From a virus (Duplodnaviria > Caudoviricetes): a stretch of 58,233 nucleotides of DNA. The notes beneath the pieces are model-generated. The model was not told the DNA's origin. It searched no databases and saw nothing but the letters and a program-made list of their open reading frames with translations. Below, piece by piece: positions 1,764 to 54,814 of the stretch (position 1 is the first letter of the stretch; each line of letters starts with the position of its first letter). Location: the IMG/VR virus record IMGVR_UViG_3300024518_003391, positions 1-58,233 of that record. One strand, given 5' to 3'. The position numbers were made by a program, and so were the translations under genes.

Positions 1764-2537
1764 TCAGCTGTTTTCGTTCACGCTGAAGGTCCTTTTTATG
1801 TAACAGATAATTGCTCCAGAAACGCCGCACCCTTGGAGGAAGGCGTGCGGGATCTCTCCGCAGGATTGTTCGATAGTATCTATCCCGATTGTGCAGGCGC
1901 CACTATGTTCAACCGATCCTAAGCCCTTCACCGTTCTGAGATTAACCGAGGCGAAGACGGTACTTATTACCCGAGCGTTGTCGAGGTTCGCCCCGGCAAC
2001 CTCGGTCGTATGAAAGTATGCTTCTCGGAGATCGGCGTCTGTGAGGTCTGCGTCTGTGAGGTCTGCGCCTCTGAAGTTTGCTCTACTGAGGTTTGCCCTG
2101 TTGAGGTATGCCCCACTGAGGTCTGCGCCATATAGCCGTGCCCCACTGAGGTTTGCCTCACTGAGGTCTGCCCCACTGAGGTCTGCCTCACTGAGGTATG
2201 CCCCAATGAGGTCTGCCCCAATGAGGTCTGCCCAGTTCAGGCGTGCCCTAATGAGGTTTGCCCCAATGAGGCTTGCCCCAATGAGGCTTGCCCTAATAAG
2301 GTTTGCCCCACTGAGGCTTGCCCTAATAAGGTTCGCCTCGTTGAGGTCTGCCCCACTGAGGTTTGCCCCAATGAGGTTTGCCCTATTGAGGTTTGCCCTA
2401 TTGAGGTTTGCCTTAATAAGGTTTGCCCCACTGAGGTCTGTAAGCGCATAGTCAGTATCCTTCCGATACCGGTTAAACTCCTCAACCTTCCCGGCTTTCA
2501 GGAGTTCTATGAGTTGTTCTTTGGTCAGTTCATCCAT
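1764..2537 (-). CDS. Pentapeptide repeat protein
   Basis: About 30 A(D/N/S)Lxx repeats with 15-bp DNA periodicity; start at MDELTKEQ after a GGGAGAGG RBS. Confidence 0.95.
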   Translation of the reverse strand: MDELTKEQLIELLKAGKVEEFNRYRKDTDYALTDLSGANLIKANLNRANLNRANLIGANLSGADLNEANLIRASLSGANLIRASLIGASLIGANLIRARLNWADLIGADLIGAYLSEADLSGADLSEANLSGARLYGADLSGAYLNRANLSRANFRGADLTDADLTDADLREAYFHTTEVAGANLDNARVISTVFASVNLRTVKGLGSVEHSGACTIGIDTIEQSCGEIPHAFLQGCGVSGAIICYIKRTFSVNENS

Positions 2538-2938
2538 AGTCGCCTCTCCCTGAAGGCATTCTCCTGTAGCGCGTATGACGCGCGCCCTGCTGACACTCGA
2601 CGACGCCACTGCATAAACTCCAAAGCGATCGCCATCTGCTGAATAATACTTTGGTGTTCCGAATATGGCATTATCGCCAACTCTTCGGCAATCTTACGGA
2701 GCCGTAAGTCGGTGATACGCATGCGCCCCCGGCCCAGCAACTTATCGCATGTTATATCCAGTGCATCAGCAAGTTGCTTCACCTTGTCGCTGTTTGGTCG
2801 CCTGCTGCCGGTTTCATAATACCAAATGCAGTTCTGTGACAGTCCGGCACGATCTGCTAATTCGGACTGTGTCATCCCCATGTTGGTACGATGCTCCTTC
2901 AGGCGTTGCCCGAATGATGAACCTATCGTCTTAGTCAT
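2525..2938 (-). CDS. XRE-family HTH transcriptional regulator
   Basis: FGQRLKEHR..GMTQSELADRAGLSQNCIWYYETGSRRP..LADAL. Confidence 0.92.
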   Translation of the reverse strand: MTKTIGSSFGQRLKEHRTNMGMTQSELADRAGLSQNCIWYYETGSRRPNSDKVKQLADALDITCDKLLGRGRMRITDLRLRKIAEELAIMPYSEHQSIIQQMAIALEFMQWRRRVSAGRASYALQENAFRERRLWMN

Positions 2939-3416
2939 GGATGTTGCCCCGTAACACGGTGTTAAACGCCTTGCCCGTATCCTCGACTTGACGATAGGTC
3001 ACACCGGCCGAGTCGTATAAACGTCTTGCGATAACGCTTTCACATTCATCGTATTTGTATAAATCAGCATAGATAACTTCGCGGATTCCAACTTGGATAA
3101 TCGCCTTCGCGCACTCATTGCACGTGAAAAACAGAACGTATATCCGGCAACCGTCAAGGTTGGCTTGGTTCGAGTTGAGTATCGCATTGAGTTCAGCGTG
3201 GATGACGGCCTCAGACTTCGCCGGGGAATCCCACGACCACTCCTCATCGGATACGCCTCGCGGGAATCCGTTATATCCGCAACCGACCCTGATATTATTC
3301 GCATCCACGATGACGGCGCCCACTTGGGTGCGAGGGTCTTTTGAGCGCTTCGCCATGACCCTTGCGCCCTCCATGAACGTCTCATCCCAAGATGCGACGC
3401 CTGTTCGCTTGCTCAT
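2931..3416 (-). CDS. dCMP deaminase
   Basis: RSKDPRTQVGAVIV, GYNGFPRG, HAELNAI and CNECAK zinc motifs; start at MSKRTG after GAGGAGG. Confidence 0.93.
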   Translation of the reverse strand: MSKRTGVASWDETFMEGARVMAKRSKDPRTQVGAVIVDANNIRVGCGYNGFPRGVSDEEWSWDSPAKSEAVIHAELNAILNSNQANLDGCRIYVLFFTCNECAKAIIQVGIREVIYADLYKYDECESVIARRLYDSAGVTYRQVEDTGKAFNTVLRGNIHD

Positions 3417-3677
3417 TTGGCCTCCTCTTCCTGAAATGACAACACCAGAGACTCGGGATAATCTCCCCGTAGTCATCAACCTGGCAGCCGTAACGTTCCT
3501 CCTTCTCGTCGCACTCACAGAGGCCCAGAAAGAGCGGCCCGGCAATCCGCACTTTGACCCGGCGGTGCGGTCAGGCTTGCGCATTAGGCGAGCGTGTTGT
3601 TGCGTGATGAGTTCCGGTACCGTCATGTGTTAGTCTCTAAGGGACGCGCGGCGCTAGTCGTTTCTCAGGTTAGCTTT

Positions 3678-4142
3678 TCATGCCGACCAATCCTCGGTCA
3701 GCTGTCGGGTGTGATAGTGAGTGAAGCCCTTCAGCAAGTGAAGAGATCCGCTGTAGTAGCCGTTACTACTGTTCCTAAAGGCAACCGTGCACCGTCCCTT
3801 GGGCGTTCGTATCTCATACCCATACACAATATCATGCTCTTGTCGGGTGCGGCCCGGCTGTAAGAACGCGTCCGGGATGGTTCCCTCTTTCAGCGCCTCA
3901 ACGCTCAACACCACTTGACCAAGCAGTGCAGGTAAGCCGATTATGTCGGCAAACCAGGACTCGGAGCATCAGTCGCCAACAGCCTTGTAAGCAATCGGCT
4001 TAGTAAGACGCGAACTAAGGCACCGGCACTCGAACACTAACAACTCTTCGCTTTCGGCAACCCAAACACTATCCACCTTCTCCCCTACCAACTCTTGCAT
4101 CGTCTCGCATACAGCCTCGGTATCAGGCTTGTTTATCATCAT
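3678..4142 (-). CDS. Conserved phage protein (recalled as DUF7448-like) with an in-frame UGA at 3969-3971
   Basis: The ORFs 3969..4271 and 3678..3914 share a frame and read YKAVGD*CSESWFADI...FRNSSNGYYSG; GGAGG RBS before the ATG at 4142. Confidence 0.7.
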
Positions 4143-4267
4143 GTCGATTCCTCCCTCTCCACTGCATGTGTTCCAATTAGCGCTGCCCCTCTCACCAGTC
4201 GCCGTCGCTGATTGAGACTCGCCGGCATGAGGGCGCAACCGGTTCGCGTTGTAGCTCGGCCTCATCC

Positions 4268-4552
4268 TCATACGTCCGTCGTCTCAATATGCCCCTCGAC
4301 TTCGATATACTCCGTTGCGGCGGCGCGGATATAATCGCCTTCGGTCATAGTATCATCGGAGGTCGCACAGCCGCATAGCCTACATACCCACGCAAGGATA
4401 TCAAACGAATCCGGCCCGCCCAGCCGCCAGTTAGTGTGAATCTCATCACAAAACCGACACTTCGCCTTATCGCCTTCTGCCATCGCAAGACCAGCGAGGG
4501 TGTCATCCGACCAAACGGATTCGGAGCCGGCTCGACTCAATAGCACGCTCAT
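4268..4552 (-). CDS. Hypothetical zinc-finger protein
   Basis: CRFC...CRLC pairs; overlaps the methylase stop codon. Confidence 0.55.
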   Translation of the reverse strand: MSVLLSRAGSESVWSDDTLAGLAMAEGDKAKCRFCDEIHTNWRLGGPDSFDILAWVCRLCGCATSDDTMTEGDYIRAAATEYIEVEGHIETTDV

Positions 4553-5559
4553 ACGACCGCCTCGATAAGCCGCTGTGCCATTAGCGGCGGAACAGAGTTG
4601 CCGATAATCCGCATCGATAGCGCAATATCCAGTTTCTTAGTGGCCGAGCGTGCCGGCCACTCATAATCATCAGGGAAGGTCTGCATCCGAGCAATGGCAG
4701 GGATCGTGACCTTTCGCACGTCGCCGGGGCCAAGTTCGCAGCGGATTGTTTGCCGGTCACAGGAGGCCGTCACTGCCCACAACGGCTGATAGCCGAAACG
4801 CACAGTGGGCGGCCGGTAGCCGCCGGGCGCAACTGGGTTCATATCCTTACCCTGCATCACATACGCTCGTGTCGGCGCTCTCAGTGCCTTACCGTCAACG
4901 ACGAACAAGCCCCGTTTCTTATTACGCGCCTGATCAACGGCGCCCTCTTGCCATTCGGCAAACTTGGACGGCGGGAGCCCGGGGATTAAATCCTCAATTG
5001 CTTCGTACCAGCCCAGCCGCCGCCATTTCGGGTAGAGCATCAGATCTCGCCTCCGTGTCGCAATCAAGAATAGCCGTTCTCGGCTCGATGCCACGCCGAA
5101 ATCAGCCGCGTTCAGAATCGGCGCGTCGATGAAATAACCCAGAGAGAGTAGACACTTCTGAATCTTCTTAAACGGCATAATCTCTCCGCTTTTTGGCTGA
5201 CTAGCGTATTCTCGAACATTTTCCAGGATAAATACGTCGGGTTTCAACGTCCGAAGAAAGAGGCCGATAGCGTCTCCGACCTGGTGGGCGTCGTCTCGAT
5301 TGGGCTTGCGGCCTTTATTTAGCTTGAATGCGCGAGAATAAGTCTGACACTCCGGAGACGCGAGAAGCACATCAACGGGTTCAAGCGACCGCGGATCCAC
5401 ATCGCGAATGTCCTTGACCGTGACATGATTGCCTAAGTTCGCAGAGTATACCGTCGCTGTCGCCGAATCGGATTCAACCGCCCAGGCCGGTGTTAGGCCG
5501 GCGGCGATGGCCCCTAAGCTGAATCCTCCGCCGCCGCAAAACAGATCTCCGAAAGTCAT
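4549..5559 (-). CDS. DNA (cytosine-5) methyltransferase
   Basis: DLFCGGGG (motif I), SPECQ (IV), ENV (VI), SRERLF (VIII), RMQTFPDDY, IGNSVPP (X). Confidence 0.95.
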   Translation of the reverse strand: MTFGDLFCGGGGFSLGAIAAGLTPAWAVESDSATATVYSANLGNHVTVKDIRDVDPRSLEPVDVLLASPECQTYSRAFKLNKGRKPNRDDAHQVGDAIGLFLRTLKPDVFILENVREYASQPKSGEIMPFKKIQKCLLSLGYFIDAPILNAADFGVASSRERLFLIATRRRDLMLYPKWRRLGWYEAIEDLIPGLPPSKFAEWQEGAVDQARNKKRGLFVVDGKALRAPTRAYVMQGKDMNPVAPGGYRPPTVRFGYQPLWAVTASCDRQTIRCELGPGDVRKVTIPAIARMQTFPDDYEWPARSATKKLDIALSMRIIGNSVPPLMAQRLIEAVV

Positions 5560-6025: not shown

Positions 6026-6811
6026 TCACTCTACAACCCCCGCTTCATCGTTTAGATAACGCTCGTAAATGACCATCTCGTCGGCAAACTGCTTGACGAC
6101 CTGGCTGTCGTTGCGCTTGCCCTCAATCCGAGTCTTCCCTCGATTGAACGCCACCGCCGTTGACGCATACGAACTGTCGAAGCTGTTTATACCGATGTTT
6201 CTCAGTTCGCGGATCCATTCTTTCCGCCCTACGCCGAATGCATGTAGAGGGTGATGCGGCACGGCCTGTCTGACGAACCGGCAAACGTCATACAGGCCCT
6301 TCTTTGGAGAGCGCATGCAGACCGAACCGATGGCAATCCAAACGTCTGCCATATCGAACACCCCATAATTCCGATAGGCCTCAATACACTGCTGATACTC
6401 GCTCAACTCGTATCCCTGAATTACGAAGACTTTGACGCCGCACACGTTCGCGTTCATGAACGCCAGCGCGTTGCGTAGCGTCTTTCGGAGCGCATCCTGT
6501 GACTCAACGCCGTTCTTCGATAGCATGTGCGGCTCCATCGGCAAATCGAGCATGGACACGTAATCGGCGTCGAGGGCGTTGGCCGTCTGAATCACGTAGT
6601 CCTGGTTGTCCGCCCAAGAGATCTGTCCCTTCTTCCATGCGGAGATCATGCCTGAATCGATGAACAGTTCTTTCGCCAGGTGGATATGCCGTTTCATCCG
6701 GCCAAAGAATAGCTTGAGCCGCCATGCTGATGCGAGGATGCGGATCTGGTTCGGATAGTGTGTGAGGTGATCGGTCCGATCCGGCGTGCAGTGAAAGTAG
6801 TGGACGCTCAT
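6026..6811 (-). CDS. dpdA: DpdA-like / tRNA-guanine transglycosylase-fold protein (putative DNA 7-deazaguanine insertase)
   Basis: FIDSG, LDLPMEP, VIQG, IGSVCMR, LHAFG and SFDSS motifs in TGT order. Confidence 0.75.
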   Translation of the reverse strand: MSVHYFHCTPDRTDHLTHYPNQIRILASAWRLKLFFGRMKRHIHLAKELFIDSGMISAWKKGQISWADNQDYVIQTANALDADYVSMLDLPMEPHMLSKNGVESQDALRKTLRNALAFMNANVCGVKVFVIQGYELSEYQQCIEAYRNYGVFDMADVWIAIGSVCMRSPKKGLYDVCRFVRQAVPHHPLHAFGVGRKEWIRELRNIGINSFDSSYASTAVAFNRGKTRIEGKRNDSQVVKQFADEMVIYERYLNDEAGVVE

Positions 6812-8777: not shown

Positions 8778-10889
8778 TTATTCATCCTTGAGCGGATAAA
8801 AGCATTCGGTGGGGCGTCCGCCCTTCTTGCCTGATAATTCCTTGCGACACGTTATCAATGCGCTTTCCGTCAGCGTTGTAACACATTCATCAAGCTGGCG
8901 TTTCGACAGCCGCGACTTTCGATATAACGCGCTCCGGAGGACGCCGGGCTTGGCGCGAATGATGTCTATCACTTTATTCCTGTTCGCCATTTCTTCGTTA
9001 TACGACACTTTGTCCAGCAGTAGCGCTATGGATTGCTTCAGATAGTCGCACAGGCGGATGGCGTATTGCATCGCATCCGCCGAGATTTCGCGTCCGGGCG
9101 TATCCAGGGCGGTCGTGGCCTGAACGTCAATCTGATAGATTGTGGCAAACTTTAGGCAGTAGGGCATCAGGCGGGCGTAGAATGCGCTGATAAGCCCCTC
9201 ATGCTCTGTGTTCATGACTGCTTCAGCCTCAAGGCTTGTCGCGAAAGCGGTGAACAGATTTTTTGCCTCATCGGTGACGCTCATCCCGCCGTTGAACATG
9301 CGAGTGACAGCGTCCAACTTGTGTAAAAGACCCTCTTTCGCGTCGAGGTGCGGTGCTTCGGGCCATGCCAGGAAACGCCGTTTCTCCGACGCGATGACCC
9401 AGAGGAACCTGGGGAGGAACCCGCCGCGCATATTTCCTTCAGAGAGACAAGCGTTGAGCCAGTCAATAGTAGACGCCGCCATGATGTTGACGAACGGCTT
9501 TTCAACTTTAAGCATCCCATCCGATTGCGTGCGGCGATGCCACACGGCCGGACAGTCAAACAGCGCAGTTAGATCGGCTTTATAGCCGCGCATGTATGAC
9601 CGGTGCTCGAACGCTTCAAGTTGAGATGCAATTTCACTCCACGCGAAAAGCCCGTAGCTCTTTTCCGTCGCCAGGTGCTTGACGAACGCCTCCGGCGACA
9701 TTTGGTCGGGAAACGTCACGGGTTCGCCACACCAATCGTCTAGCAGGTACCGGGCGGTATCGATTGACGTGCTTTTTCGGTATAGCCCGGACGGCGCAAC
9801 GATTGCCAGCCACATATTGGGGCGGAGCGTCGATTGACCGTAGCGGATATATGAATTCCGACACGCCATCGAGAGAATCGACATGCCGCACATCATCGTG
9901 AACTGATCGGGGGCGTCGGTCGTCGGCTCAACGTATTCGATGTAGCTATTCAGGAATGAACTGGGCGGGACAAGATCACTTCGGTGGAACGGCGCGTCTT
10001 TGCGATGCGCCTGTGGGTCTGTGATGATTAGCGTGTCGGCTTCGGCCTGGGCGGGAGACGGGATTTGTTCGACATTGCTCCGACCACGTTCAGGTTCCGG
10101 CCTGTGCTGCTCCCAGGCGGCTTTGGCGATTCGCCTGACTTCGCCGTCGGAAAGCGGCGGATCGCAGTCTTGGTTCTCGTACAACAGAGCGCTTTCAAGG
10201 GCTTCAAGCGTGTGCAACGTCCGACGCAGCGCACACGCTTCACGGTACAGGGTGTCATTGCGCGAACCTTCAGCGATTATCCGTTTCCCCTGCTTGCCCT
10301 TTTTTCGCGACTTTCGCTCATTCGCTTTCGGCAATCGGTCAACCAAAAAAGCCGGCATCGGCCCGGCAGGTTCAGTGTTGATTGCGTATCGCTCCCCGGA
10401 GATGTGCAAGGACGGTGCGAGTATGATGTAGCCGCCGGTAGAGCGCACGTCGAACAGATCCGCTGTCTCCACGGCATTCTTGAGTGCGACCGGTGACTGC
10501 TGGAAAATGACATGATTCCCGCCCCCGCCTGTCCTTTGGATTGTCGTCTGGGGAAACTCATCAGAAAACAGCGCGGTAAAGTTCGCTACAGCTTTGTCGC
10601 TGTCTAGGTCAATGCAATCTCTGCCGGACGGGGCGCCCATCGCCGCGCCGATGCTCGCGTGCGGGAATCGCGCCCACCACTTCTCAATTATTTTCAGGTC
10701 TGACGTCGCCGCCTTGACGCCCTTGAGTGTGCGCGGGTGTTTAGCGGGACTGCCACAGTTTGCGCCTTTTGGACAACTACATATGTAGCCGTCCGCCGGG
10801 CTGTCGCCTAGCAGTTGCGGCTCAAACACCGGAAAGACCGCCCACCCCTGTGATGCGTAATCTAGGGCGGCGTCTAAGTGAGTATTCAT
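8778..10889 (-). CDS. Bifunctional primase-polymerase + PriCT + DUF3987-like helicase with C-terminal wHTH
   Basis: ALDYASQGWAVFP, AKHP, CIDLD, RTGGGGNH, DVRSTGGYII.APSLH; EGSRNDTL; APSGLYRKSTS P-loop; GFLPRFL. Confidence 0.92.
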   Translation of the reverse strand: MNTHLDAALDYASQGWAVFPVFEPQLLGDSPADGYICSCPKGANCGSPAKHPRTLKGVKAATSDLKIIEKWWARFPHASIGAAMGAPSGRDCIDLDSDKAVANFTALFSDEFPQTTIQRTGGGGNHVIFQQSPVALKNAVETADLFDVRSTGGYIILAPSLHISGERYAINTEPAGPMPAFLVDRLPKANERKSRKKGKQGKRIIAEGSRNDTLYREACALRRTLHTLEALESALLYENQDCDPPLSDGEVRRIAKAAWEQHRPEPERGRSNVEQIPSPAQAEADTLIITDPQAHRKDAPFHRSDLVPPSSFLNSYIEYVEPTTDAPDQFTMMCGMSILSMACRNSYIRYGQSTLRPNMWLAIVAPSGLYRKSTSIDTARYLLDDWCGEPVTFPDQMSPEAFVKHLATEKSYGLFAWSEIASQLEAFEHRSYMRGYKADLTALFDCPAVWHRRTQSDGMLKVEKPFVNIMAASTIDWLNACLSEGNMRGGFLPRFLWVIASEKRRFLAWPEAPHLDAKEGLLHKLDAVTRMFNGGMSVTDEAKNLFTAFATSLEAEAVMNTEHEGLISAFYARLMPYCLKFATIYQIDVQATTALDTPGREISADAMQYAIRLCDYLKQSIALLLDKVSYNEEMANRNKVIDIIRAKPGVLRSALYRKSRLSKRQLDECVTTLTESALITCRKELSGKKGGRPTECFYPLKDE

Positions 10890-51468: not shown

Positions 51469-52132
51469 TGTTCAAGCCCCCTAGGACGCGTAGTAGTGTA
51501 TCGTGTGAAATGTCTAGCTTCCCGGTAAGGTGGCTGGTGATGTTCAATTCAAAGCGGCTGCAATTGGCATCAAGCAACTTAACTACCGTAATGCCCCCAT
51601 TCGTCAGCGCAAACTGCTGATAAGGGGCACGCAGAAGGAAATGCAAAAGGAATGCCCCGGTAATGCCATGACCTACAAGGCACACAACAGCGTCGTTGAA
51701 CTCATTTCGTAATTGCCACATCCGGAGAGCGACCTGATGGGATCGCTCATACGCATCCTGAAGAGTCTCATCCGGATTCACCCACCAATCCCCGTCGGTA
51801 ATCGACGGAGGCAGATCGACATACGGGAAGCGTTGCTCGATGTCGCCTCTTTTCATCCCATGGTATCCGGAATATGCCCAATGTTCTGCAAGATCCGGGA
51901 GTATCATAGGCGGCCGGGACTTACTCCTACGCCGCGCCTTAGTAATCGGCTCAATAGTCTCCATCGCCCGACGCAACGGACTGCAATAAATAACATCAAT
52001 CGGCGCATACTTCAGCACCTCCGCTACACGCCGTGCCTGCCTATGCCCTAATTCCGTCAGTCCCAAATCCGGCTCCGTCGTCTCCATCACGTTCTTTATC
52101 GCTTCGCCGTGCCGTACAAAGATAAGTCGCAT
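51455..52132 (-). CDS. Histidine phosphatase (phosphoglycerate mutase family)
   Basis: IFVRHGE, LTELG..QA, SPLRRAMET, L.E, VGHG. Confidence 0.93.
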   Translation of the reverse strand: MRLIFVRHGEAIKNVMETTEPDLGLTELGHRQARRVAEVLKYAPIDVIYCSPLRRAMETIEPITKARRRSKSRPPMILPDLAEHWAYSGYHGMKRGDIEQRFPYVDLPPSITDGDWWVNPDETLQDAYERSHQVALRMWQLRNEFNDAVVCLVGHGITGAFLLHFLLRAPYQQFALTNGGITVVKLLDANCSRFELNITSHLTGKLDISHDTLLRVLGGLNSASA

Positions 52133-53466
52133 CAGATATACCTCACCGAACGCGATGTCGTCCGGCGCGGCGCGACAACACTCATCACAGCATACCTTTT
52201 TTGGTCACAGCCGTGGTCGTCAATCTTGGCCGGCTCATCTTTCGCCACACCCGCTCCGGACACCGCCCATTCATAGCCGAGTATCTCTTCGAGCGTTGAT
52301 TGCGGTCGCTTGCGCTTGATTGGTCCGTCCGTGTCCAGTAGTTTCGGGTCGGCGTCTACCAGCGCATCCCGACAGATGAATAGCTCATCATTAGCGATTT
52401 TTTCGTATGTCTTTTCGATTCCCAGTGCAACATCCTTTTTCGCGCCGATGGTGCGTATACCGTTCTCCGCGAGCGTCAATCTGTCGGACACGTCGTGATC
52501 AGCGACAGTGTATGCGTATCGTTCGCCGATCGAAGCCTCGTTTATCATCCCGGCGAAGTCCTTGACGCTGATACCCGACCAGTAGATCTCTCGATACATA
52601 TACATCTTCCGTCCGTCAATTACGCGCCAGAACCCGCACACGTGCGGGTTGTTGCCGCCGAAGTCGATTGACCTGAAGTTGAAGTTATCAGGCCACTTCG
52701 CCCCATCGGGAAGCGGGGGCACGGCATCGATAACGTGTTTGGCATCATCGAAACAGTCGTAGATACGTCCGGCGAAGCCGACCCATTCACCCAAGACCAT
52801 ACGGCGGTAAAACAGACCCTTGATGCGTTCAAGGGTCGCCAGGTACGCGGCGGATAGAGTCGGGTTGTCGAACGTCGTGACGCGGATAGTAAGCGTGTCG
52901 GAATCCTGTTGCTCGACGAATCGCTGATATAGCCAGTGACTCGGACTGCCGGGGTTACTCGCCATGAAGATTTGGGGCGTTGACCCGGCAACTTCATACG
53001 ACAACCGGGTCGTAACCATGTCGAAATCGGATTCATCCAGTTCATACGCTTCGTCAATGTACGCTTTCGTCAGTTCAAGCGAGCCGATTTTAGTCAGCTT
53101 ATCGATGCCGAAAAAGAGTATCTGCGACCCGTTGGAGAGGGTCGCCTTGAACTCGCTTTTCGCCCAGTGCTTGATTAGGCCGTATTCGCCTGCGTTGTCG
53201 TCTTCACTCGCCCATCCGCAAGCGTCCACAAGAAAACTGCGAATGGTGGTGTTGAACAGCGTAGCACGGACCTTGCGAAAGACACCGAAGCGCCCGCCCG
53301 GGTATCGCAGGGCGTCTTGAAGCACACGCTCTACCACCGGCCTAGACTTGCCGGCGCGCACCGCCCCCGAAATTATATTGAACTTCTTATCGGACGCCAT
53401 GAACGGCGCCTGCTTCTCAGTCGGCTCAAAGGGCGGTTTGTTCAGCGTCGGCGCGGCTGCCGGCAT
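52132..53466 (-). CDS. terL: Terminase large subunit (PBSX-like)
   Basis: GAVRAGKS Walker A, YIDEA Walker B, SNP, DNP, IDFG, DDHGCD; probable start MPAAAP. Confidence 0.95.
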   Translation of the reverse strand: MPAAAPTLNKPPFEPTEKQAPFMASDKKFNIISGAVRAGKSRPVVERVLQDALRYPGGRFGVFRKVRATLFNTTIRSFLVDACGWASEDDNAGEYGLIKHWAKSEFKATLSNGSQILFFGIDKLTKIGSLELTKAYIDEAYELDESDFDMVTTRLSYEVAGSTPQIFMASNPGSPSHWLYQRFVEQQDSDTLTIRVTTFDNPTLSAAYLATLERIKGLFYRRMVLGEWVGFAGRIYDCFDDAKHVIDAVPPLPDGAKWPDNFNFRSIDFGGNNPHVCGFWRVIDGRKMYMYREIYWSGISVKDFAGMINEASIGERYAYTVADHDVSDRLTLAENGIRTIGAKKDVALGIEKTYEKIANDELFICRDALVDADPKLLDTDGPIKRKRPQSTLEEILGYEWAVSGAGVAKDEPAKIDDHGCDQKRYAVMSVVAPRRTTSRSVRYI

Positions 53467-54814
53467 CGGATAGCGGTATTGGTAGATGTGGGGTTGATAT
53501 GCGCTGGCCATGGAATAACTCCATGAAGGGGATTCGCTGTCCATCGCGTTCGCACCACGCCCCCGACTCGCCACCGACGTGTGCCACCCACCGCCTGACA
53601 GCAAGATCGACGTAACGTGGCTCTATTTCGACAGCGTAACATCGGCGTCCTAGCTGCTCACAAGCAATCAGGGTCGTCCCGGATCCCAGGAAGGGGTCGT
53701 AAACTGCGTCTCCCTCCTTAGACGAGTTAAGCAGAGCGTTTCCTACTAACGCGACGGGCTTCGTCGTCGGATGATCAGGCGAGGCCCGGGGCTTGTCAAT
53801 CGGCCACACAGACGTATTGAACTGGCCCTTCCCATAGTGCTTATGCGTTTTCTTCCACGTGTATAGAATCGGCTCGTGTTGATATTCATAGTCAAGGCGA
53901 CCCATGCTGAAGCCAGGCTGGTTCTTGAGCCAAAACAGAATGTGACGAACAGGAAGGCCCACCTGCTGCATCATCATCAGGAACATTCCCCCCCCAGATC
54001 CCCCCTGCGGCCCAGTGACATAGATAGCCGCGCAGTCGTCCATGACCTCGCGAACTAACGTAAATGCAGCGGTCAGCATTGGTCGTAACTCGTCACTAGC
54101 CAGGGAATCTCCATGCAGTTTGTCGAGTGACCTTGCGGACCTCCTCTGGAGGGTGTTCAACAGAGCGTTCTTCTCACCGATACCCACCCCATAAGGCGGA
54201 TCGGTGAACACCAAGGCCGCCGAGCCTCCAGTCATCAAGCCAGCGACAACCGATTTGTCCGTACAGTCTCCGCACGCGAGATGATGCTCACCTAGTACCC
54301 ATAAATCACCTACCTGTGATGCCGCTTCATCAGGCGCCGCCTCATCGAAGCCATCTTCAACTATTTCGGGCGCCCCTCTGACATCCGCCAGGAGATTATC
54401 AAGCTCATCGGCATCAAACCCAGTACCCTCAATATCAATATCCGGCACGGCCTCAAGTTCTTCGATTAAGTCATTAAGCGCCGTGGCATCCCATTCGCTG
54501 GTTTCCGCCGTCCGGTTATCGGCAATCGAATACAGTTTAGCGTCATTCTCCGACATGTCCACGTAGACAACAGGCACCGTTTCGATGCCTTCAGCCTTTG
54601 CCGCCTCAAGCCTACCATGTCCAGCGATTATCATGTTGTCGGCCCGCCGCACAATCACGGGATTCGTCCATCCGAACCGGGTGATACTCCGCTTAATGTC
54701 AGCGATATTCCGTTCCGAGTGATGGCGCGGGTTGTCAACAAATGGCTTCAGTGCGTCAAGCGCAACGTACTCAATCGCTATCGGATTCTGCACGCCGTGC
54801 TGTTTGGTTTGCAT
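53426..54814 (-). CDS. ParB-like domain + beta-class N6A/N4C DNA methyltransferase
   Basis: NPR, FGWTNP, IIAGHGR, IADNR; TDPPY, HPTTKPV, DPFLGSGTT. Confidence 0.95.
   Translation of the reverse strand: MQTKQHGVQNPIAIEYVALDALKPFVDNPRHHSERNIADIKRSITRFGWTNPVIVRRADNMIIAGHGRLEAAKAEGIETVPVVYVDMSENDAKLYSIADNRTAETSEWDATALNDLIEELEAVPDIDIEGTGFDADELDNLLADVRGAPEIVEDGFDEAAPDEAASQVGDLWVLGEHHLACGDCTDKSVVAGLMTGGSAALVFTDPPYGVGIGEKNALLNTLQRRSARSLDKLHGDSLASDELRPMLTAAFTLVREVMDDCAAIYVTGPQGGSGGGMFLMMMQQVGLPVRHILFWLKNQPGFSMGRLDYEYQHEPILYTWKKTHKHYGKGQFNTSVWPIDKPRASPDHPTTKPVALVGNALLNSSKEGDAVYDPFLGSGTTLIACEQLGRRCYAVEIEPRYVDLAVRRWVAHVGGESGAWCERDGQRIPFMELFHGQRISTPHLPIPLSDAGSRADAEQTAL

What the first reader, a model, noticed from the sequence alone, without database searches (positions are those of the whole stretch)
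3678..4142. In-frame UGA at a probable Cys-Cys motif: candidate phage selenoprotein or recoding site
Seen: two ORFs in one frame are separated only by TGA (3969-3971), reading GAC TGA TGC TCC GAG TCC TGG = GD*CSESWFAD. Both halves are intact, the upstream half has a strong RBS and the downstream half has no evident one. A hairpin GGT-TT-GCCGA-CATAA-TCGGC-TT-ACC starts about 13 nt after the UGA. Knowledge (recalled, not searched): this phage family normally carries a D-C-C-S/E..W motif and a C-terminal SNGYY.G, so the UGA sits where a Cys is expected. Cys/UGA alignment with a downstream hairpin is the hallmark of bacterial selenocysteine insertion. Inference: a Sec-Cys (UC) redox or metal-binding protein using the host SelAB/tRNA-Sec, since no sel genes were seen here. 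Caveats: the apical loop lacks the G typical of bacterial SECIS, and TGA acts as a normal stop elsewhere in the genome.
Basis: partly seen in the sequence, partly recalled or inferred. Interest (0 to 1): 0.82.

Follow-up and report, generated by a model that had tools for sequence, protein, structure and literature searches.

The report
Candidate selenocysteine codon in phage gene
A marine phage gene of unknown function carries a real in-frame TGA exactly where its relatives have a near-invariant cysteine, and an unrelated phage has TGA at the same spot, so it is a candidate phage selenoprotein, though a plain nonsense mutation is not excluded.

Summary
On the minus strand, one DUF7448 (PF24240) gene runs 4142→3681 and is interrupted only by TGA at 3971-3969. 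The TGA lies on the first Cys of a GD-C-C-S-x-S-W motif. That column is Cys in 127 of 131 related loci.

The TGA is not an assembly error: contigs of 4 seawater runs carry it with no difference. It is not a code change either. TGA is the window's commonest stop and also ends this same gene.

One divergent viral homolog (L027, 35% identical, 33% GC, a different phage) has TGA at the same column. Its nearest relatives (58% identical) have Cys-Cys.

L027 has a 10-bp hairpin that meets all four published bacterial SECIS criteria. The window's cited hairpin fails the loop-G rule and also occurs in Cys-bearing homologs. A second hairpin has a GGUC loop but lies too far downstream.

Over 75 nt, the two TGA bearers rank 4th and 6th of 111 for excess structure. 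That length was chosen after seeing the fold.

Neither phage record has sel genes or tRNAs, and the hosts are unknown.

Verdict: selenocysteine recoding about 0.5, fixed nonsense allele about 0.35.

The parts
3681..4142 (-). DUF7448 coding sequence read through the internal TGA (154 codons; Sec/stop is codon 58)
   Evidence: Translation. Pfam PF24240 36.2 bits against a cut-off of 27, and PHROG 2650, both spanning the stop. AlphaFold2 model of the joined protein: pLDDT 89.7, pTM 0.83.
4149..4160 (-). Shine-Dalgarno-like GGAGAGGGAGGA, 6 nt before ATG 4142
   Evidence: Read.
3969..3971 (-). In-frame TGA on the first Cys of the GD-CC-SxSW motif (candidate Sec codon)
   Evidence: Present without difference in contigs of runs X1-X4.
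3966..3968 (-). TGC, the invariant second Cys of the vicinal pair
   Evidence: Second-Cys codon is TGC or TGT in all 123 loci that the script scored. The 8 loci it missed all read CC by eye.
3931..3955 (-).
   Evidence: In my constrained fold (the hairpin with up to 8 nt of flank on each side) it reaches -12.3 kcal/mol. It fails the loop-G rule. Its 5-bp core ranks 29th of 111 by energy.
3908..3929 (-). Hairpin 2: 9 bp with loop GGUC (3920-3917), loop beginning 48 nt after the UGA
   Evidence: Minimum-free-energy and centroid fold. The spacing lies outside the 16-37 nt of the published model.
3900..3970 (-). Whole three-way structure: closing stem GAUGCUC/GAGCGUU, which includes the GA of the UGA, around hairpins 1 and 2
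   Evidence: -27.6 kcal/mol, z -2.75, 2 of 200 dinucleotide shuffles fold as well. Rank 4 of 111 homologue sequences.
3678..3680 (-). The gene's own terminator, also TGA, directly after the family's C-terminal DWSA

Best explanation
The TGA at 3971-3969 is a selenocysteine codon. The gene would encode a full-length 154-residue DUF7448 protein whose conserved vicinal Cys-Cys pair is Sec-Cys (U58-C59). The pair sits at the turn between two beta-strands. Because the phage records carry no sel genes and no tRNA, decoding would use the host's SelA, SelB, SelD and tRNA-Sec. SelB would be recruited by the mRNA structure just downstream, within the coding sequence (3970-3900). Shown: the TGA is real. 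It sits on a near-invariant Cys. Both halves keep every invariant residue. TGA is otherwise a stop in this phage. A second, divergent phage has TGA at the same column with a hairpin that fits the SECIS model. Inferred: that the codon is read as Sec, which hairpin serves as the SECIS, that the host makes selenoproteins, and that the Sec-Cys pair is a redox (selenenylsulfide/selenol-thiol) centre. The biochemical role of DUF7448 is unknown. It lies among nucleotide-metabolism and DNA-modification genes.
For: (1) Cys/TGA pairing. The column is Cys in 127 of 131 related loci, TGA in 1, and Arg, Gly and Ser in 1 each. Both Cys are invariant in 101 of 101 homologous proteins.
(2) Homology spans the stop, and all 14 invariant positions downstream of it are kept.
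(3) A second TGA at the same column occurs in L027: 35% identical, 33% GC, a CheckV 99%-complete 49.8-kb phage whose own stop is TAA. Pfam matches L027's joined protein at E 9.6e-20 across its stop. Its nearest relatives, 58% identical, have CC. A random nonsense hit on that codon has probability 1/53 to 1/68.
(4) The TGA stands in contigs of 4 seawater runs at depths 19.1, 18.7, 7 and 4.1, with 0 differences. Three of those runs may be the source sample.
(5) There is no code change. TGA ends 42 of 86 ORFs in the window and 10 of 71 in L027's record, and coding density does not rise when TGA is read as sense.
(6) L027's hairpin has a 10-bp stem, a 7-nt loop GAACACA, spacing of 18 nt, and -10.2 kcal/mol. 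It meets all four criteria of the published bSECIS model. Its 3' arm lies in a variable part of the protein.
(7) Over 75 nt from the codon, the window (z -2.75/-3.25) and L027 (z -3.39/-3.05) rank 1st and 2nd of 18, and 4th and 6th of 111.
Against: Only 1 other TGA case was found among 131 loci. The 94 weaker metagenome relatives were not seen.
The window's hairpin 1 has no G in the first two loop positions, and hairpin 2 (GGUC loop) lies 48 nt from the UGA. So neither hairpin meets all four bSECIS criteria.
Those criteria are unspecific as I implemented them: 26 of 111 sequences pass, and 25 of those carry a Cys codon.
In the first structure analysis (60 nt, mononucleotide shuffles) the window ranked only 18th of 111. 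The 75-nt frame was chosen after seeing the fold. Four Cys-bearing sequences are as structured or more so.
The AU test does not reject a tree that joins the window and L027 (p 0.121), so two independent origins are not formally shown.
The first Cys is replaceable in three loci: L030 Arg, L069 Gly, L085 Ser.
Nonsense and frameshift alleles do occur in this family: L002=L049 has an in-frame TAA, and L032 loses its frame.
The host is unknown for both phages, so Sec capacity is untested.
UGA followed by U is, from recalled E. coli data, a comparatively efficient terminator.
Confidence: 0.5

Rival explanations
1. Fixed nonsense allele. A single TGC/TGT-to-TGA substitution truncates the protein after 57 residues, and the gene is a recent pseudogene in a phage that can do without it. 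L027 is a second, coincidental nonsense mutation.
For: One base change is enough. Broken copies exist in the family: TAA in L002=L049 and a frame loss in L032. The window's hairpin is ordinary among Cys-bearing homologues and fails the loop-G rule. A recent lesion would leave both halves intact. The first Cys is dispensable in 3 loci. The finding was picked from a very large scan, so rare coincidences are expected.
Against: Two nonsense hits on the same one of 53-68 possible stop-creating substitutions has probability of about 0.015-0.02 per event. Both hits fall on the codon where Cys/Sec exchange is expected. Both are followed by structure in the top 6 of 111. The allele is the consensus in 4 runs. 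No second lesion is present in either gene.
Confidence: 0.35
2. Leaky termination. The UGA is read at low frequency by a near-cognate tRNA (Trp or Cys), giving a little full-length protein plus a 57-residue fragment, without selenium.
For: No canonical SECIS in the window. No suppressor tRNA is needed for such reading. Low-level UGA read-through in bacteria is established knowledge, recalled here and not tested.
Against: It does not explain why the stop sits on the conserved Cys in two phages. It does not explain the excess structure downstream. The UGA-U context is not a leaky one in E. coli (recalled).
Confidence: 0.1
3. Sequencing or assembly error, or a phage or host that reads TGA as a sense codon throughout (table 4 or 25, or a phage suppressor tRNA).
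For: None found.
Against: Contigs of 4 runs agree with 0 differences. TGA ends 42 of 86 ORFs in the window and also ends this gene at the family's normal C-terminus. Reading TGA as sense does not raise coding density. No tRNA gene was found in either phage record.
Confidence: 0.03

Closest known systems
Bacterial selenoprotein genes (in-frame Sec-UGA with a SECIS hairpin inside the coding sequence, read by SelB and tRNA-Sec; model case E. coli fdhF)
   Same: In-frame UGA aligned with a conserved Cys. Conservation on both sides. A TGA-bearing homologue in another genome. A stable stem-loop immediately downstream. These are the criteria used for Cys/Sec-pair discovery (PMC13188914, passages read).
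   Different: The gene is on a phage that carries no sel genes. The window's hairpin at the right spacing lacks the loop G, and the hairpin with a GGUC loop is 48 nt away. The protein family is not a known selenoprotein family. Host Sec capacity is unknown.
Thioredoxin reductase C-terminal Gly-Cys-Sec-Gly (vicinal Cys-Sec redox pair; recalled, not searched)
   Same: Sec directly adjacent to Cys, which could form an eight-membered selenenylsulfide ring.
   Different: The order is Sec-Cys rather than Cys-Sec. The pair is internal, at a beta-turn, rather than C-terminal. The fold is unrelated. No redox activity is shown for DUF7448.
DUF7448 / PHROG 2650 proteins of tailed phages and giant viruses (for example Mycobacterium phage Danforth gp41, next to DNA polymerase I)
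   Same: Same domain, same GD-CC-SxSW and FRNSSNGYYGG motifs, same length.
   Different: Of the 131 related loci and 101 homologous proteins examined, all have a sense codon at the first Cys column except L027. Only the window and L027 have TGA.
Selenoproteins of eukaryotic viruses (glutathione peroxidase homologues of molluscum contagiosum and fowlpox viruses; recalled)
   Same: A virus-encoded UGA read by the host's Sec machinery.
   Different: Those use eukaryotic 3'-UTR SECIS elements and a known selenoenzyme family captured from the host.

Membership tests
Bacterial selenoprotein gene | In-frame UGA aligned with Cys in homologues (Cys/Sec pair) | tested here: met
   Cys in 127 of 131 loci at the column; invariant in 101 of 101 homologous proteins.
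Bacterial selenoprotein gene | Sequence conservation on both sides of the UGA | tested here: met
   Pfam and PHROG matches span the stop. 14 invariant positions downstream are kept.
Bacterial selenoprotein gene | TGA-containing homologues in other organisms | tested here: met
   One: L027, 35% identical, a different phage. Three further IMG/VR pattern scans found no more.
Bacterial selenoprotein gene | bSECIS: 3-9 nt loop on a 4-16 bp stem, G in the first two loop positions, 16-37 nt from the UGA, MFE <= -7.5 kcal/mol (PMC13188914 Fig. 2 legend) | tested here: not met
   Hairpin 1 has spacing 23, loop CAUAA and -12.3 kcal/mol (constrained fold with flanks), but no G. Hairpin 2 has loop GGUC but spacing 48. 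L027 meets all four. The same review states that a subset of bacterial SECIS elements does not fit the model.
Bacterial selenoprotein gene | selA, selB, selC, selD available in the cell | not testable with these tools
   Host unknown. None of these genes is in either phage record. The window's record is only 54% complete.
Bacterial selenoprotein gene | Selenium incorporated at the UGA | not testable with these tools
   Needs 75Se labelling or mass spectrometry.
DUF7448 (PF24240) | Profile match above the curated cut-off, with the family's invariant motifs | tested here: met
   36.2 bits against a cut-off of 27. CC-SxSW and FRNSSNGYY are present, with S for the near-invariant G131.
Phage or host with TGA reassigned to a sense codon | TGA rare as a terminator and frequent inside genes; longer ORFs when TGA is read as sense | tested here: not met
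   TGA ends 42 of 86 ORFs. Coding density is 0.921 under code 11 against 0.911 with TGA as sense.
Decayed pseudogene | Further stops, frameshifts or loss of invariant residues | tested here: not met
   One stop only, and all invariant residues are kept. This does not exclude a recent nonsense allele.

The most novel reading that the evidence does not exclude
Tailed phages have converted the first Cys of the DUF7448 vicinal Cys-Cys pair into selenocysteine, probably more than once. That would make a phage-encoded selenoprotein family with a Sec-Cys centre that is built entirely with the host's Sec machinery. In the marine phage, the signal would be a non-canonical, two-hairpin SECIS: hairpin 1 acts as a folded spacer that brings the GGUC-loop hairpin 2 to the SelB-binding distance.
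Probability: 0.3. Interest if true: 0.85.

Novelty: new variant of a known kind. Interest (0 to 1): 0.62.

Why it matters
I found no description of a bacteriophage-encoded selenoprotein. Full-text searches for selenoprotein/bacteriophage/SECIS, selenocysteine/phage-encoded/UGA, and selenoprotein/'phage genomes' gave none (listings). A 2026 review of prokaryotic selenoproteomes contains neither 'phage' nor 'virus'. [quoted passage not shown] DUF7448 appears in no paper of the library.

If the codon is read as Sec, three things follow. Phages can tap the host's selenium pathway. Gene callers are systematically splitting such genes (here into P0004 and, in L027, P0047). And the Sec site would flag the conserved Cys-Cys pair of a widespread, uncharacterised viral domain, found in phages and giant viruses, as its reactive centre. 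That gives a handle on the domain's function.

Tried and rejected
Sequencing error was rejected. A global TGA reassignment and a phage suppressor tRNA were rejected. A frameshift is not needed, because both halves are in one frame. The ATG that overlaps the stop (UGAUG) is out of frame, by my reading.

Rfam at gathering thresholds found no match in the window.

Three extra IMG/VR pattern scans for TGA at the column gave no new case. They returned 2, 13 and 0 stretches. Apart from L027's own contig, all were chance hits outside DUF7448 genes.

A search for short split forms in the protein collection covered only 30-59 residues. It gave one truncated Cys-Cys protein, which is uninformative.

Function by fold was inconclusive. 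Foldseek against the PDB gave nothing at E <= 0.001. VIA-align gave a best Z of 5.5 (5v77) and 5.4 (PIM7 immunity protein 8owu_E), and Z 3.6-4.8 for NFACT-N and Fpg/Nei N-terminal domains. All are below the level the tool calls meaningful.

Host inference failed. The terminases are only 30-41% identical to phages of many hosts. The methyltransferase's nearest Atlas clusters are weakly Pseudomonadota.

No RNA holder was listed for the stretch.

Supplementary files of papers were not consulted.

Full report
**Observation**

The feature lies on the minus strand. A 154-codon reading frame runs from ATG 4142 to the stop TGA 3680-3678. A strong Shine-Dalgarno-like run, GGAGAGGGAGGA (4160-4149), precedes the start. 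The frame is interrupted once, by TGA at 3971-3969, in the context GAC TGA TGC TCC GAG TCC TGG. After this TGA, the next in-frame start is GTG 3914, which has no ribosome-binding site.

**What the gene is**

Read through with X at the stop, the protein matches Pfam DUF7448 (PF24240, 36.2 bits against a cut-off of 27, residues 51-134). It also matches PHROG 2650 (E 3.5e-19, residues 13-138). Both matches cross the stop.

A protein search returned 43 proteins at E <= 0.001 among 68 candidates. One of them (P0004) is the window's own upstream half, seen on 3 contigs. A second search, seeded with the L027 protein, returned 64 among 66 candidates.

In the alignment of 102 sequences, both Cys of GD-C-C-S-x-S-W are invariant, as are R, N, S, N, G, Y and G of FRNSSNGYYGG. 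The window's first Cys in that alignment is my TGA=C reading. The TGA therefore sits exactly on the first Cys of a vicinal pair.

The AlphaFold2 model of the joined protein is confident (pLDDT 89.7, pTM 0.83) and all-beta. Residues 58-59 lie at the turn between strands 47-56 and 61-68.

Fold searches gave no function. Foldseek against the PDB found nothing at E <= 0.001. VIA-align gave a best Z of 5.5, which the tool itself rates as uninformative. BFVD shows the fold in many phages and in giant viruses, all uncharacterised.

The neighbours in the window, all on the same strand, are a dCMP deaminase (2931-3626), a C5 DNA methyltransferase (4549-5559) and a DpdA/TGT-like protein (6026-6811). In Mycobacterium phage Danforth the homologue follows DNA polymerase I. 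The family thus sits in replication and nucleotide modules.

**Is the TGA real, and is TGA a stop here?**

Logan contigs of four seawater-metagenome runs cover 3969-3971 with no difference, at depths 19.1, 18.7, 7 and 4.1. Three of the four may be the sample of origin, so independent support is limited. Still, a one-off assembly error is excluded.

TGA ends 42 of 86 greedily chosen ORFs in the window. Reading TGA as sense does not raise coding density (0.911 against 0.921). The gene itself ends in TGA, exactly where homologues end in DWSA. No tRNA gene is present. A changed genetic code or a phage suppressor tRNA is therefore rejected.

I examined 131 related loci: 46 viral, 80 metagenomic (the best 80 of 174 confirmed relatives) and 5 from genomes. 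The first-Cys column reads as follows (script for 123 loci; by eye for the 8 that the script missed):

| Reading at the first-Cys column | Loci |
|---|---|
| TGC or TGT (Cys) | 127 |
| CGT (Arg, L030) | 1 |
| GGT (Gly, L069) | 1 |
| AGC (Ser, L085) | 1 |
| TGA (L027) | 1 |

The collections overlap: there are 111 distinct sequences including the window and L027.

L027 belongs to a different phage, of 49.8 kb, 33% GC and CheckV 99% complete. Its protein is 35% identical to the window's. It matches DUF7448 at E 9.6e-20 across its own TGA. The gene ends in TAA. Its closest relatives, at 58% identity, have Cys-Cys. TGA ends 10 of 71 ORFs in that phage, and it carries no tRNA.

On a quick maximum-likelihood tree, the window and L027 are not neighbours, so the TGA state needs two changes. 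However, the AU test does not reject joining them (lnL 50.8 lower, p 0.121). Either reading helps the recoding idea. Either there were two separate conversions, or one TGA has been retained across 65% sequence divergence with both halves intact.

Under the null model of random nonsense mutations, a hit on this codon has probability 1/68 in the window gene and 1/53 in L027. The family does contain other broken copies: an in-frame TAA in L002=L049 and a frame loss in L032. So lesions happen, but elsewhere in the gene.

Three further IMG/VR pattern scans aimed at TGA-Cys-Ser-x-Ser-Trp found no additional case.

**The RNA signal**

The published bacterial SECIS model requires four things (PMC13188914, Fig. 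2 legend and text, passages read):
- a 3-9 nt loop on a 4-16 bp stem;
- a G in the first two loop positions;
- 16-37 nt between the UGA and the loop;
- MFE <= -7.5 kcal/mol.

L027 meets all four. It has a 10-bp stem, loop GAACACA, spacing of 18 nt, and -10.2 kcal/mol. The 3' arm of its hairpin lies in a variable stretch of the protein.

The window does not meet all four. Hairpin 1 has the right spacing (23 nt) and energy (-12.3 kcal/mol in my constrained fold with flanks), but its loop is CAUAA. Hairpin 2 (3929-3908) has a GGUC loop but lies 48 nt from the UGA.

The model is also unspecific as I implemented it. 26 of 111 sequences pass, and 25 of those carry a Cys codon. Hairpin 1 arises from conserved Ala-Asp...Gly codons and recurs in Cys-bearing homologues.

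The structure rankings are:

| Analysis | Window | L027 |
|---|---|---|
| 60 nt, mononucleotide shuffles, 111 sequences | 18th | 2nd |
| 75 nt including both window hairpins, dinucleotide shuffles, 18 sequences | z -2.75 | z -3.39 |
| 75 nt, dinucleotide shuffles, all 111 sequences | 4th | 6th |

In the 18-sequence comparison, the 16 Cys controls ranged from z -1.70 to +1.01, so the two TGA bearers were the two most structured. The 75-nt frame was chosen after I had seen the fold, so this enrichment is suggestive only.

**Machinery**

No tRNA-Sec, SelA, SelB wing domain or SelD was found in either phage record. The window's record is only 54% complete. Any Sec insertion would therefore depend on the host. 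The hosts could not be inferred.

**Verdict**

The accepted computational criteria for a new selenoprotein are a Cys/TGA pair, conservation on both sides of the TGA, and a TGA-bearing homologue elsewhere. All three are met. The SECIS criterion is met in L027 and not in the window. Host competence is unknown.

I put selenocysteine recoding at about 0.5, a fixed nonsense allele at about 0.35, selenium-independent leaky read-through at about 0.1, and artefact or code change at about 0.03.

If the codon is Sec, the protein carries a Sec-Cys vicinal pair. The nearest known chemistry is the Cys-Sec pair of thioredoxin reductase (recalled). It would also be, as far as my searches show, an undescribed case of a bacteriophage-encoded selenoprotein.

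Noticed in passing
window 6026-6811 (-): ORF with DpdA (PF23859, E 5.4e-10) and TGT (PF01702) matches, near the C5 methyltransferase (4549-5559) and the dCMP deaminase (2931-3626). The phage may put 7-deazaguanine into its DNA as well as methylating cytosine.
   Followed up: partly
window 4268-4552 (-): 94-residue ORF directly upstream of the DUF7448 gene, with two Cys-x-x-Cys pairs (CRFC...CRLC) and no Pfam match. Possibly a small zinc-ribbon protein.
   Followed up: no
window 1764-2609 (-) and 2525-2938 (-): A pentapeptide-repeat protein (E 6.7e-50) whose listed GTG start overlaps the end of an XRE-type HTH gene by about 85 nt. The true start is probably further in.
   Followed up: no
L002 nt 3187 (= L049, the same 43,872-nt contig in two collections): A DUF7448 homologue with an in-frame TAA at a non-conserved position, with both sides otherwise intact.
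   Followed up: partly
L032 (IMG/VR contig of 93,609 nt), about nt 3290 onward: A DUF7448 homologue that loses the frame after the CCSESWFAD motif, with no FRNSSNGY in frame. Probably a frameshifted copy.
   Followed up: no
L030, L069, L085: The first Cys of the pair is replaced by Arg, Gly and Ser respectively, while the second Cys is kept. The first Cys is therefore not absolutely required.
   Followed up: no
protein P0110 (96 aa, on a 43-kb Logan contig): A homologue that begins MRLAVVSESWIEH, with Val-Val at the Cys-Cys column and no N-terminal half. Its DNA could not be fetched, so the cause is unknown.
   Followed up: no
BFVD matches to the model of window 3681-4142: The DUF7448 fold is also found in proteins of giant viruses (Tupanvirus, Mimivirus, Pithovirus, Hokovirus) at Foldseek E 1e-4 to 2e-6, an unusually wide viral range for an uncharacterised domain.
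   Followed up: no
window 8778-10889 (-), 52132-53604 (-): A Prim-Pol/PriCT/DUF3987 primase-helicase-like protein and a Terminase_3 large subunit. The terminase is only 30-34% identical to those of actinophages and haloarchaeal tailed viruses, so the phage has no close cultured relative.
   Followed up: partly
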